From IMG/VR virus record IMGVR_UViG_3300035696_001272: a DNA stretch of 61,399 nt, one strand, 5' to 3'. This document shows positions 3,461 through 4,480 of this stretch, piece by piece. The stretch is from a virus (Duplodnaviria; Heunggongvirae; Uroviricota; Caudoviricetes). Below the pieces are notes generated by a model. It saw nothing but the letters and a program-made list of their open reading frames with translations. It was not told the DNA's origin and searched no databases. How positions within the stretch are numbered: position 1 is the stretch's first letter; each line of letters starts with the position of its first letter. The translations under genes were made by a program, and so were the position numbers.

Positions 3461-3488
3461 TTGACTTGGCGCGGGTAATGATTATACT
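3461..3488 (+). promoter_or_regulatory. sigma70-like promoter
   Basis: TTGACT-N16-TATACT. Confidence 0.7.
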
Positions 3489-3515
3489 TTAGATTCTATT
3501 TTGAAGGAGAAAGAA

Positions 3516-4025
3516 ATGTCCACCAAGATTACCATTGCACAAGCATTGCGTCGTGTCAAGAAATTGAAGGGTCAGATTGCTGAGCATACTCAACGAGCTA
3601 TGCAAAGCGTCAGTTATGAGCAGGGTAAAAAGCCAGCCTTCCCATTCCATGAGGAAATGGTAGCCCGTGCTGCCGCTCAAAAAGAGATGCTTGATTTGCA
3701 ATCTCGTGTTGCCGTTGCTAATGCTAAGGCAACAGTTAATGATGCTGGTGAGACCATTACTCATGCAGAGGCTATCCGCCGATTGCAAGAGTTCAAAGGT
3801 GAAATTGCCTTTCTCACAAGTTTGCATCTCAGAAATGAAACGGTCAAAAACCGTGAGCAAGAGTGGGACCTTACCAGCTGCGTCATGGTAACTCGTGCCA
3901 CAGAAGTGACTTTCGTTTCTGATTTATCAGAGCAAGACCGCGCTAAAGCAGTCAAAGTTTTAAGAGACCGCTTCGAGACATTGAATAATGTTGTCGAAGA
4001 TCACAACCACAAAGTGACGGTCTAA
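3516..4025 (+). CDS. helical protein resembling the DIP1984 family
   Basis: AAGGAG SD then ATG 3516. N-terminal ITIAQALRRVKKLKGQI and C-terminal LRDRFETLNNVVEDHNHKVTV recall the DIP1984 terminal motifs (from memory). Confidence 0.6.
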   Translation: MSTKITIAQALRRVKKLKGQIAEHTQRAMQSVSYEQGKKPAFPFHEEMVARAAAQKEMLDLQSRVAVANAKATVNDAGETITHAEAIRRLQEFKGEIAFLTSLHLRNETVKNREQEWDLTSCVMVTRATEVTFVSDLSEQDRAKAVKVLRDRFETLNNVVEDHNHKVTV

Positions 4026-4029
4026 TGAC

Positions 4030-4480
4030 CAAGAATCGCAGTAATTTTTATGGGCCTACATGTTCAGTCCATAAATCATACAGGGCGAAACGCAAACCTC
4101 GTGCCTCAAAAAAGTTTCCAACCGGATGTCCACAGTGTTGGAAAATTTATCACGGGGAATATTAAGATTTAGCGCTAAGGCGCAAAGGACTGGGTACGAA
4201 AACGTACTTAATTGAAAACTGGTGATCCCCGTTCTCTAGGGAATTCCTTCGGGAATTAATTTGAGTAGTTTGCAATATGCAAGCACAATGGCGTCCGAAA
4301 GGACAAATACTCGCTCCGATGCTGATACAAACCCCAGCGATTATAAGCTGGTTAGCACTTAGCTTTTATAATAGCATTTCAGCGGTAAGCCATAAGTACT
4401 TAGCAATGTTTAAGCCCCGACGGGCCGCAATAAGCAGACAGCAATTGTTAAACCAGCTTTTCATTAACGAAATTTTCGTA
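4030..4480 (+). ncRNA. large unassigned structured RNA (about 450 nt)
   Basis: Many helices: 4047-53/4069-75, 4115-22/4137-44, 4152-58/4226-32, cUUCGg hairpin 4242-57, GAAA hairpin 4293-4304 within 4263-67/4308-12, 4345-53/4451-59; no convincing ORF. Confidence 0.7.

What the first reader, a model, noticed from the sequence alone, without database searches (positions are those of the whole stretch)
3461..4480. Candidate new RNP system: DIP1984-like protein followed by a ~450-nt structured ncRNA
Seen: a dedicated promoter (3461-88) and SD drive a 169-aa helical protein. Its stop is followed at once by about 450 nt of nested helices, including a cUUCGg loop (4242-57), a GAAA loop inside a multi-way junction (4263-4312), long-range pairs ACGGGGA/TCCCCGT and AAGCTGGTT/AACCAGCTT, and no credible ORF. 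No terminator is evident before the RNase P RNA and RNA ligase genes. It lacks the landmarks of tmRNA, group I introns, SRP or 6S RNA that I could check by eye. Known (from memory): the protein termini resemble the DIP1984 family, whose function is unclear. Inferred: the protein and RNA form a ribonucleoprotein and travel together as a module.
Basis: partly seen in the sequence, partly recalled or inferred. Interest (0 to 1): 0.9.

Follow-up and report, generated by a model that had tools for sequence, protein, structure and literature searches.

The report
Heptad-rail RNA behind DIP1984-like gene
Right after a small gene of unknown function, this giant peat-soil phage encodes a folded RNA of about 330 bases that carries ten evenly spaced AGC units. 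The same gene-plus-RNA pair recurs in dozens of giant phages and a few tiny bacteria and matches no family in the Rfam RNA catalogue, so it is probably an undescribed protein-RNA particle.

Summary
The finding is real, but its boundaries and fold need correcting.

**The protein.** The 169-aa protein (3516-4025) has the DIP1984 fold (Foldseek hit to 3KDQ). It scores below both curated family cut-offs.

**The RNA.** The conserved RNA is about 330 nt (4165-4495), not 450 nt.
- Positions 4026-4165 are a lineage-specific insert, absent from 20 of 23 relatives.
- Two long-range helices (P1, P2) close the RNA.
- Inside them lie a 5' multi-hairpin domain and a loop of ten AGC units spaced 7 nt apart.
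- Covariation supports the helices: 86.6% of cells pair, against 24-44% when partners are slid, and 21 of 28 pairs show double changes.

**Linkage.**
- Phased AGC units directly follow the gene in 33 of 36 loci, against 0.2% of background windows. These include GC-rich relatives with 36-44% protein identity and Patescibacteria chromosomes.
- Remoter relatives, including T5-like phages, carry a rail with a different motif.
- RNase P RNA abuts the RNA in 20 of 23 close relatives.
- There is no Rfam match, and I found no paper on it.

**Most likely mechanism (inferred).** Copies of the protein dock on the phased units, as HutP does on XAG heptads, and form an RNP tied to stable-RNA gene clusters.

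**Earlier notes.** This scan has already noted the same class on other DNA.

The parts
3461..3488 (+). Sigma-70-like promoter match (TTGACT, 16 nt, TATACT)
   Evidence: 10 of 12 positions match. Matches of this quality occur at chance frequency in the region, and the site is not conserved in relatives.
3516..4025 (+). 169-aa DIP1984-fold (DUF6847-like) protein gene
   Evidence: HMM matches are sub-threshold: NF038048 E=1.3e-6, 28.7 bits against a cut-off of 70; PF20935 21.3 bits against 27. The AF2 model has pLDDT 92.7. The top PDB match is 3KDQ, TM 0.65/0.71. There are 384 clusters of relatives. The self-association model scores 0.58 against 0.00 for controls.
4025..4165 (+). Lineage-specific insert with a 46-aa ORF whose ATG overlaps the upstream stop codon; status unknown
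   Evidence: It is absent from 20 of 23 relatives. L121 and L197 carry unrelated ORFs at the same place. No homologue was found.
4165..4495 (+). Conserved structured RNA (the 'AGC heptad-rail RNA')
   Evidence: nhmmer finds it after the gene in all close relatives. Covariation supports its helices. There is no Rfam match.
4172..4183 (+). P0, a 5' tetraloop hairpin
   Evidence: It is present in most relatives as GCCC-GNRA/UAAG-GGGC. It is poorly aligned in A4.
4191..4202 (+). P1 5' strand (pairs with 4473-4484), the outer closing helix
   Evidence: helix 1: 13 pairs, 10 of them with double changes, 86.9% of cells paired. GC-rich relatives form the same helix from quite different sequences (read by eye).
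4208..4223 (+). P2 5' strand (pairs with 4452-4467), the inner closing helix
   Evidence: a 9-15 bp duplex forms in all 23 relatives, with compensatory changes in its outer part.
4228..4241 (+). P3, a short hairpin (CCC/GGG)
   Evidence: helix 2; folds of the individual relatives.
4242..4257 (+). P4, a hairpin with a UUCG loop
   Evidence: helix 3: all 3 core pairs show double changes, 93.8% of cells paired.
4265..4286 (+). P5, a variable hairpin that is missing in many relatives
   Evidence: this region varies in length.
4293..4304 (+). P6, a hairpin with a GAAA loop
   Evidence: helix 4: all 4 pairs show double changes.
4318..4328 (+). Conserved GAUnnnGAUAC element just before P7
   Evidence: It contains invariant columns in A3 and A4. 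It also occurs in distant loci.
4334..4351 (+). P7, a hairpin (CCAGC/GCUGG) at the 5' edge of the array
   Evidence: helix 5. Compensatory variants occur in L002, L127, L129, L130 and L137.
4346..4457 (+). Array of AGC units. Ten lie between P7 and P2, and one more lies in each flanking helix strand. The unit consensus is AGC-A-n-U-n.
   Evidence: an AGC-to-AGC spacing of 7 nt occurs 92 times and of 14 nt 28 times. One search gives the unit logo; this is the highest AGC density in the window; 33 of 36 loci against 0.2% of background windows.
4414..4425 (+). Small hairpin inserted inside the array, specific to this lineage
   Evidence: only the window, L002, L121 and L163 have an insert here. 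L124, L197 and L196 carry hairpins at other places in the array.
4485..4494 (+). U-rich tail after P1, which also serves as the spacer to the RNase P RNA
   Evidence: A U-rich tail follows P1 in the relatives.
4507..4870 (+). RNase P RNA, bacterial class A, abutting the heptad RNA
   Evidence: 256.5 bits. The same adjacency is seen in 20 of 23 close relatives.
4882..5529 (+). RNA ligase gene (PF09414), a syntenic neighbour
   Evidence: The same order is seen.

Best explanation
**Shown.** The locus is a conserved two-part module.
- The first part is a 169-aa protein with the DIP1984 fold.
- The second part is a structured RNA of about 330 nt on the same strand, directly downstream.
- Two long-range helices (P1 and P2) close the RNA.
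- Inside them lie a 5' domain of four to five hairpins and, between hairpin P7 and P2, an unpaired loop of ten units of consensus AGC-A-n-U-n spaced 7 nt apart.

**Inferred.**
- The RNA is transcribed together with the protein gene and the abutting RNase P RNA, and is cut out as a stable RNA.
- Several copies of the co-encoded protein, probably as symmetric dimers, dock one per unit on the phased AGC triplets. This is the way HutP reads XAG triplets spaced 7 nt apart and TRAP reads (G/U)AG triplets.
- The closing helices and the 5' domain hold the rail in a loop, giving a defined protein-RNA particle.

Its cellular role is not known. Its constant company (RNase P RNA, tRNA genes, RNA ligase) points to stable-RNA or tRNA metabolism during infection.
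For: **The RNA is real.**
- Covariation on 23 distinct sequences gives 86.6% of cells paired, against 24-44% when the partners are slid.
- 21 of 28 pairs show double changes, and 0 of 500 shuffles reach the observed values.
- P2 forms in all 23 relatives with compensatory changes.
- Folds of the individual relatives agree with one another.

**The rail is real.**
- The 7-nt spacing dominates, with 92 cases at 7 nt and 28 at 14 nt.
- AGC is invariant within the units while the spacers vary.

**Gene and RNA are linked.**
- 33 of 36 loci have phased AGC units right after the gene, against 0.2% of 898 background windows.
- This includes loci at 55-60% G+C whose proteins are only 36-44% identical, and Patescibacteria contigs.

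**The rail motif changes with the protein clade.** It is UxAxGG in L211 and UUAAGnn in Vibrio phage JSF10. That is expected if the protein reads the units.

**The protein.**
- It has the DIP1984 fold.
- It has many conserved basic residues.
- A self-association model scores 0.58 against a best control of 0.00. The three runs agree in at least 90% of contacts and the partner's pLDDT is 86. The pass mark was reached by 20 of 30 solved homodimers and 1 of 23 solved monomers. The calibration used two copies, not four, and 3KDQ may be remembered by the model.

**Precedent.** HutP binds XAG motifs 7 nt apart and recognises the A and the G (PMC2425495).

**Company.** RNase P RNA follows in 20 of 23 close relatives. 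A tRNA follows in L141 and L169.
Against: - No binding, expression or processing data exist for any member.
- In L002 the gene is cut to about 100 homologous residues while the RNA is intact. The RNA may therefore not need this protein, or a second copy may exist elsewhere in that genome.
- The predicted interface is a two-fold dimer. It is not a ring or filament that would explain ten units by itself.
- The window's own array is less regular than those of its relatives. It has no run of three AGC at exact 7-nt spacing.
- PHROGs labels the related 211-aa phage family 'tail fiber protein'.
Confidence: 0.55

Rival explanations
1. The element is a cis-acting attenuator or antiterminator. The upstream-encoded protein binds the phased units in its own 3' UTR and so controls whether P1/P2 form. 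P1 is followed by a U-rich tail. This would set read-through into the downstream stable-RNA and ligase genes, as HutP does in the hut operon.
For: - The gene order matches hut: regulator gene, then an XAG-rich structured region, then downstream genes (PMC2425495).
- P1 is followed by a U-rich tail in most relatives, and by six U in L146.
- Many members have a local hairpin (GUACG...CGUAC) that competes with P1.
- The first and last AGC lie in strands of P7 and P2.
Against: - A covarying 5' domain of about 150 nt (P3-P7) is far more than an attenuator needs.
- The competing local hairpin is missing in L129, L130, L131, L134 and L135.
- What lies downstream differs between clades: RNase P RNA, a tRNA, or unrelated ORFs.
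- The RNA is closed at both ends like a stable RNA.
Confidence: 0.17
2. The RNA is a decoy or sponge for a host factor that reads phased triplets. The neighbouring protein is only a syntenic passenger or a helper.
For: - The RNA survives truncation of the gene in L002.
- It is carried by phages in regions rich in host-takeover and tRNA genes.
Against: - The pair also sits on Patescibacteria chromosomes, including a 971-kb contig that carries 16S rRNA, and next to IleRS, TrmB and RuvA genes. A phage decoy makes little sense there.
- The motif changes with the protein clade across hosts as different as Vibrio and peat-soil organisms.
Confidence: 0.1
3. The RNA is a 5' leader or processing element of the RNase P RNA precursor, or an accessory domain of a phage RNase P.
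For: - RNase P RNA starts 1-12 nt after the RNA in the window and in many relatives. It follows the RNA in 20 of 23 close relatives.
- No rnpA-like gene was noticed nearby.
Against: - Protein and rail persist where no RNase P RNA lies within 2.5 kb (L135, L146, L149, L151, L155).
- In L002, L153, L163 and L195, 250-500 nt separate the two RNAs.
- In the Patescibacteria genome the only RNase P RNA is 7 kb away on the other strand.
Confidence: 0.06
4. The protein is a structural tail-fibre-like coiled coil, as annotated in T5-like phages. The downstream gap is an unrelated conserved element.
For: It matches phrog_1491 'tail fiber protein' at E=3.7e-7. Many RefSeq records carry the same label.
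Against: - The fold matches a cellular protein of unknown function, 3KDQ.
- Homologues lie on bacterial chromosomes.
- In phages the gene sits among tRNA and early-type genes, not in tail modules.
- The label looks like propagated annotation; I found no experimental basis for it.
Confidence: 0.04

Closest known systems
HutP and the hut terminator RNA of Bacillus subtilis (PMC2425495)
   Same: - Triplets containing AG are spaced exactly 7 nt apart (XAG plus four free spacers).
- An oligomeric protein reads them.
- The gene for that protein lies directly upstream of the RNA on the same transcript.
   Different: - HutP has a different fold; it was absent from the Foldseek hits.
- The hut RNA has two sites of three triplets flanking a terminator. 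It is not ten units inside a closed 330-nt RNA with its own multi-hairpin domain.
- Here C follows AG invariantly.
- No regulated enzyme operon follows.
TRAP and the trp leader (11 (G/U)AG triplets wrapped around an 11-subunit ring; from established knowledge, PMC3184956 listed)
   Same: About ten phased AG-containing triplets are presented as single-stranded RNA. Their number suggests a fixed stoichiometry.
   Different: - TRAP spacers are 2-3 nt, not 4.
- TRAP is a beta-sandwich ring, whereas this protein is mainly long helices with two beta-hairpins.
- The trp leader is a simple attenuator, not a closed structured RNA.
DIP1984 family / Pfam DUF6847 (crystal structure 3KDQ, Corynebacterium diphtheriae; function unknown; some members are annotated 'septicolysin')
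   Same: - The fold matches: TM 0.65-0.71, probability 1.0.
- The match to the family profile covers its full length, positions 2-147 of 149.
   Different: - It scores far below the curated cut-offs (28.7 against 70 bits; 21.3 against 27 bits).
- It is about 20 residues longer.
- Whether canonical cellular members also have a rail RNA could not be tested here.
Large structured phage-associated RNAs near tRNA genes (GOLLD, ROOL) and tmRNA
   Same: It is a large, ornate, uncharacterised RNA, carried by phages and located among tRNA or stable-RNA genes.
   Different: - None of them matches by covariance model, even at E<=10.
- None is known to carry a phased heptad array or a dedicated upstream protein gene.
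- There is no tRNA-like domain or tag reading frame.
Type III toxin-antitoxin loci (ToxIN): a repeat RNA next to its protein partner (from established knowledge)
   Same: A tandem-repeat RNA is encoded beside the protein that is thought to bind it.
   Different: - ToxI repeats are about 36 nt, precede the toxin gene and are cut into units by it.
- Here the units are 7 nt, follow the gene and lie inside one folded RNA.
- The protein matches no PADLOC defence model.

Membership tests
DIP1984 family (NCBIfam NF038048) / DUF6847 (Pfam PF20935) | Profile score at or above the curated cut-off | tested here: not met
   NF038048 scores 28.7 bits against a cut-off of 70. PF20935 scores 21.3 bits against 27. 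Distant relatives reach up to 52 bits.
DIP1984 family (NCBIfam NF038048) / DUF6847 (Pfam PF20935) | Same fold as the solved family member 3KDQ, over the full length | tested here: met
   Foldseek: 3kdq_C, E=1e-4, probability 1.0, TM 0.65/0.71. The HMM alignment spans profile positions 2-147 of 149.
HutP / hut-type antiterminator system | XAG triplets separated by four spacer nucleotides (7-nt period) | tested here: met
   The precedent was checked in PMC2425495.
HutP / hut-type antiterminator system | HutP-fold protein (PF09021) | tested here: not met
   There is no Pfam HutP hit, and no HutP structure appears among the Foldseek PDB hits.
HutP / hut-type antiterminator system | Two sites of three triplets flanking an intrinsic terminator in front of a regulated operon | tested here: not met
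   Here ten consecutive units lie in a closed RNA. No hairpin terminator was found on the + strand. What lies downstream varies between clades.
TRAP / trp leader | (G/U)AG triplets with 2-3 nt spacers, and a TRAP beta-sandwich ring protein | tested here: not met
   The spacers are 4 nt. The protein is mainly helical with two beta-hairpins.
Any Rfam 15 family (tmRNA, 6S, SRP, group I intron, GOLLD, ROOL, HEARO and the rest) | Covariance-model match | tested here: not met
   - No match in 4026-4506 at the gathering score.
- At E<=10 only a chance-level SNORA33 hit (E=7.4) falls there.
- None in 34 related loci.
- ARAGORN finds no tmRNA.
Type III toxin-antitoxin (ToxIN-like) | An array of repeats of about 36 nt upstream of an endoribonuclease toxin gene | tested here: not met
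   The units are 7 nt and lie downstream of the gene. There is no PADLOC hit.
Heptad-rail RNA with DIP1984-like gene (the class noted earlier by this scan; unpublished) | A DIP1984-like gene followed on the same strand by an RNA that is closed by a long-range helix and carries about 8-10 units with a 7-nt period | tested here: met
   - In the window and 35 related loci.
- In JSF10.
- In T5_ev219 a closing helix is present but the rail is less regular.

The most novel reading that the evidence does not exclude
The DIP1984/DUF6847 superfamily is the protein half of a widespread, undescribed class of ribonucleoprotein particles. About ten protein copies, perhaps five dimers, assemble on a closed-loop RNA rail of 7-nt units. 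The motif of the units co-evolves with the protein. Giant phages, T5-like phages and ultra-small bacteria all carry the particle, and it acts on tRNA or other stable RNAs (processing, protection or repair) during infection.
Probability: 0.4. Interest if true: 0.9.

Novelty: categorically new. Interest (0 to 1): 0.82.

Why it matters
- It would give a first functional handle on a protein family (DIP1984/DUF6847) that has had a crystal structure since 2009 but no known role.
- It would add a large structured RNA class, absent from Rfam, to the short list of ornate bacterial and phage RNAs.
- A fixed number of phased units in a closed loop implies a particle of defined stoichiometry. That suits cryo-EM, and it offers a natural RNA scaffold with a programmable protein-docking register.
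- Relatives occur in T5-like phages of E. coli, found here in 746 phage records. The question can therefore be tested directly in a model system.
- The tight linkage to RNase P RNA, tRNA genes and RNA ligase suggests an unrecognised layer of stable-RNA biology in phage infection.

Tried and rejected
**Known RNA families.** I tried tmRNA, SRP, 6S, group I introns, GOLLD, ROOL and HEARO. No covariance-model or ARAGORN match was found.

**A 14-mer scan of viral contigs.** Apart from the L002 contig it gave only chance hits.

**A degenerate 3'-end pattern in viral contigs.** It recovered only contigs already known, plus chance matches inside coding DNA (L188, L190, L191, L193).

I rejected it because L127 and L137 keep P7 and P2 but break this pairing.

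**The 46-aa ORF at 4025-4165 as a conserved gene.** No homologue exists. Other lineages carry unrelated ORFs at that place.

**SIMPL as part of this window's module.** The upstream 302-aa ORF is not SIMPL-like. A SIMPL gene does neighbour the module in L195, L196 and L211.

**Expression.**
- No RNA holder is listed.
- The two soil cDNA runs I laid cover only conserved RNase P core from other organisms.

**Sequence search of the PDB with the family profile.** It found nothing.

**Canonical cellular DIP1984 members.**
- I could not fetch any. The plasmid accession GQ377752 is not in the collection.
- The bridging search returned only two proteins.

**Whole genome of the window.** None is held.

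**Defence systems.** There was no PADLOC hit.

Full report
**Setting.** The window looks like part of a giant phage.
- It carries 21-23 tRNA genes and a class A RNase P RNA at 4507-4870.
- The protein of interest also lies on a 476,653-bp contig.
- The DNA is held by peat metagenome runs.
- No whole genome is held for the window.

**The protein.**
- ORF 3516-4025 (169 aa) matches DIP1984_fam (NF038048) over the whole profile, but at 28.7 bits against a cut-off of 70.
- It matches DUF6847 at 21.3 bits against 27.
- An AlphaFold2 model built on 40 homologues is confident (pLDDT 92.7). It has four long helices and two beta-hairpins.
- Its only significant PDB match is 3KDQ, the Corynebacterium diphtheriae protein of unknown function: TM 0.65/0.71, probability 1.0.
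- The family is large: 155 close homologues, many on contigs of 166-506 kb, and 384 clusters at 50% identity.
- A four-copy model supports self-association through a symmetric interface. The score is 0.58 and the best control 0.00. The runs agree in at least 90% of contacts, and the partner's pLDDT is 86.
- The pass mark was reached by 20 of 30 solved homodimers and 1 of 23 solved monomers. The calibration used two copies, and 3KDQ may be remembered by the model.

**Where the RNA really lies.**
- The 481-nt gap folds well (z = -4.06) and matches nothing in Rfam.
- Homology to relatives starts only at about 4165.
- In 20 of 23 distinct relatives the RNA begins 1-10 nt after the stop codon.
- The window, L121 and L197 each carry a different insert at that point.
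- The window's insert (4025-4165) holds a 46-aa ORF whose ATG overlaps the stop codon. It has no homologue, so its status is open.
- The conserved RNA is 4165-4495, about 330 nt.

**Fold.** Folds of eleven individual relatives, a duplex analysis and pair counting on 23 sequences agree on one architecture:
- P0: a 5' tetraloop hairpin (4172-4183).
- P1: 4191-4202 with 4473-4484.
- P2: 4208-4223 with 4452-4467. P1 and P2 together close the molecule.
- P3: 4228-4241.
- P4: the UUCG hairpin, 4242-4257.
- P5: a variable hairpin.
- P6: the GAAA hairpin, 4293-4304.
- A conserved GAUnnnGAUAC element (4318-4328).
- P7: 4334-4351.
- The repeat array.
- A U-rich tail.

The counts on P1, P3, P4, P6 and P7 were:
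- 86.6% of cells pair, against 24-44% when partners are slid by 1-3 columns.
- 21 of 28 pairs show changes on both sides, against 10-12 when slid.
- The covariation score is 0.286, against about 0.09.
- No shuffle in 500 reaches the observed values.

P2 forms 9-15 bp in all 23 sequences, with clearly compensatory outer pairs. In GC-rich distant relatives P1 is made of entirely different sequence, such as a 14-bp helix in L149 (read by eye).

- ACGGGGA lies in the non-conserved insert.
- AAGCUGGUU/AACCAGCUU is broken in L127 and L137, where P7 and P2 are kept.

**The rail.**
- Between P7 and P2 lie ten units of consensus AGC-A-n-U-n.
- Across 26 sequences, an AGC-to-AGC distance of 7 nt occurs 92 times and of 14 nt 28 times.
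- AGC is fixed while the spacers vary.
- Small hairpins are tolerated as inserts at a few points in the array.
- In the window the tract 4334-4460 has the highest AGC density of the whole 61 kb: 12 against a mean of 1.7.
- The window's spacing is less regular than in relatives. It has no three AGC at exactly 7+7 nt.

**Linkage.**
- Phased AGC neighbours (7 or 14 nt apart, three or more) lie directly after the gene in 33 of 36 loci, against 0.2% of 898 background windows in the same loci.
- This holds for loci at 55-60% G+C whose proteins are 36-44% identical.
- It holds for three of 401 Patescibacteria genomes. One carries the pair on a 971-kb contig that begins with 16S rRNA.
- A still more distant cellular member is L211, flanked by IleRS, TrmB, SIMPL and RuvA genes. 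It has a rail of UxAxGG units.
- The T5-like Vibrio phage JSF10 has about ten UUAAGnn units inside a closing helix.
- T5 itself has a related 440-nt gap.
- The 211-aa phage relative occurs in 746 phage records and is usually labelled 'tail fiber protein'.
- One exception is L002, where the gene is truncated after about 100 homologous residues but the RNA is intact.

**Company.**
- RNase P RNA follows the RNA in 20 of 23 close relatives, often within 1-6 nt.
- A tRNA follows in L141 and L169.
- An RNA ligase gene comes next in many loci.
- More distant members lack RNase P RNA nearby. The pair is therefore the core, and the RNase P adjacency is a habit of one clade.

**Mechanism.**
- AG-containing triplets exactly 7 nt apart are how HutP reads the hut RNA. 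It recognises the A and the G, while the four spacers are free (PMC2425495). TRAP reads similar triplets at a shorter spacing.
- The rail motif differs between protein clades, and the protein is predicted to self-associate.
- The most economical reading is therefore that copies of the co-encoded protein dock on the units and form a defined particle. P1/P2 and the 5' domain would hold the rail as a loop.
- This is inference. I put it at about 0.55.
- A HutP-like cis-regulatory role is the main rival, at about 0.17.

**Novelty.**
- No Rfam family matches, and no paper in the held library mentions DIP1984 or DUF6847. The only hits there were to the third search word, septicolysin. Two broader searches also found nothing relevant.
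- Earlier notes of this scan describe the same class on other DNA: AGC heptads in another phage, other motifs in gut bacteria, DPANN archaea, Patescibacteria and T5.
- I read those notes after reaching my own reading, and they agree with it. They are not independent evidence.

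Noticed in passing
window 4507-4870: A complete class A RNase P RNA begins 12 nt after the heptad RNA. In relatives it often starts 1-6 nt after it. In L002 and several others it carries a large insertion (about 500 nt in all).
   Followed up: partly
window 2920-3441: An HNH_3 plus zf-FCS endonuclease gene sits between the upstream gene and the DIP1984-like gene. 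Similar HNH genes recur at or near this position in relatives (L159, L169, L197 and the P0008 contig), which suggests a homing-endonuclease hot spot.
   Followed up: partly
window 4025-4165: A 46-aa basic ORF containing Cys and His has its ATG overlapping the stop codon of the upstream gene (TAATG). No homologue exists anywhere. L121 and L197 carry unrelated ORFs at the same site.
   Followed up: yes
L002 2995-3345 (IMGVR_UViG_3300044797_000271): A relative in which the DIP1984-like gene is truncated (116-aa ORF, homologous over about 100 aa) by a deletion that also removes the insert. The RNA stays intact.
   Followed up: partly
L155 / G002 contig C4 (971 kb, starts with 16S rRNA); L211 (GCA_964573855.1): The gene-RNA pair lies on chromosomes of ultra-small bacteria, near a TrmB-family regulator in both. 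In L211 it also lies near IleRS, SIMPL and RuvA genes. The only RNase P RNA of G002 lies 7 kb away on the other strand.
   Followed up: partly
L195 1678-2508, L196 1690-2508, L211 6142-6912: A SIMPL-domain gene neighbours the module in phage and cellular loci. In L195 and L196 it overlaps the start of the DIP1984-like gene by 8 nt. It is not present next to the gene in this window.
   Followed up: partly
L212 (Vibrio phage JSF10, NC_042074.1) 2501-3590; L213 (T5_ev219) 1501-2585: The 211-aa relative in T5-like phages is annotated 'tail fiber protein', yet it lies among tRNA or early-type genes. An unannotated gap of about 445 nt follows it. The gap has a closing helix and, in JSF10, ten UUAAGnn heptads.
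   Followed up: partly
L141 2404-2475; L169 3640-3712; L159 about 2810-2860: In some relatives a tRNA gene follows the heptad RNA in place of RNase P RNA, 8 nt after the nhmmer match in L141. In L159 it is a tRNA-like 3' half.
   Followed up: no
L146 about 3250-3285: Four exact tandem copies of GGTTCGT lie just after the heptad RNA of a GC-rich relative.
   Followed up: no
window 4882-5529: An RNA ligase gene (PF09414) directly follows the RNase P RNA. The same order recurs in the 480-500 kb relatives.
   Followed up: partly
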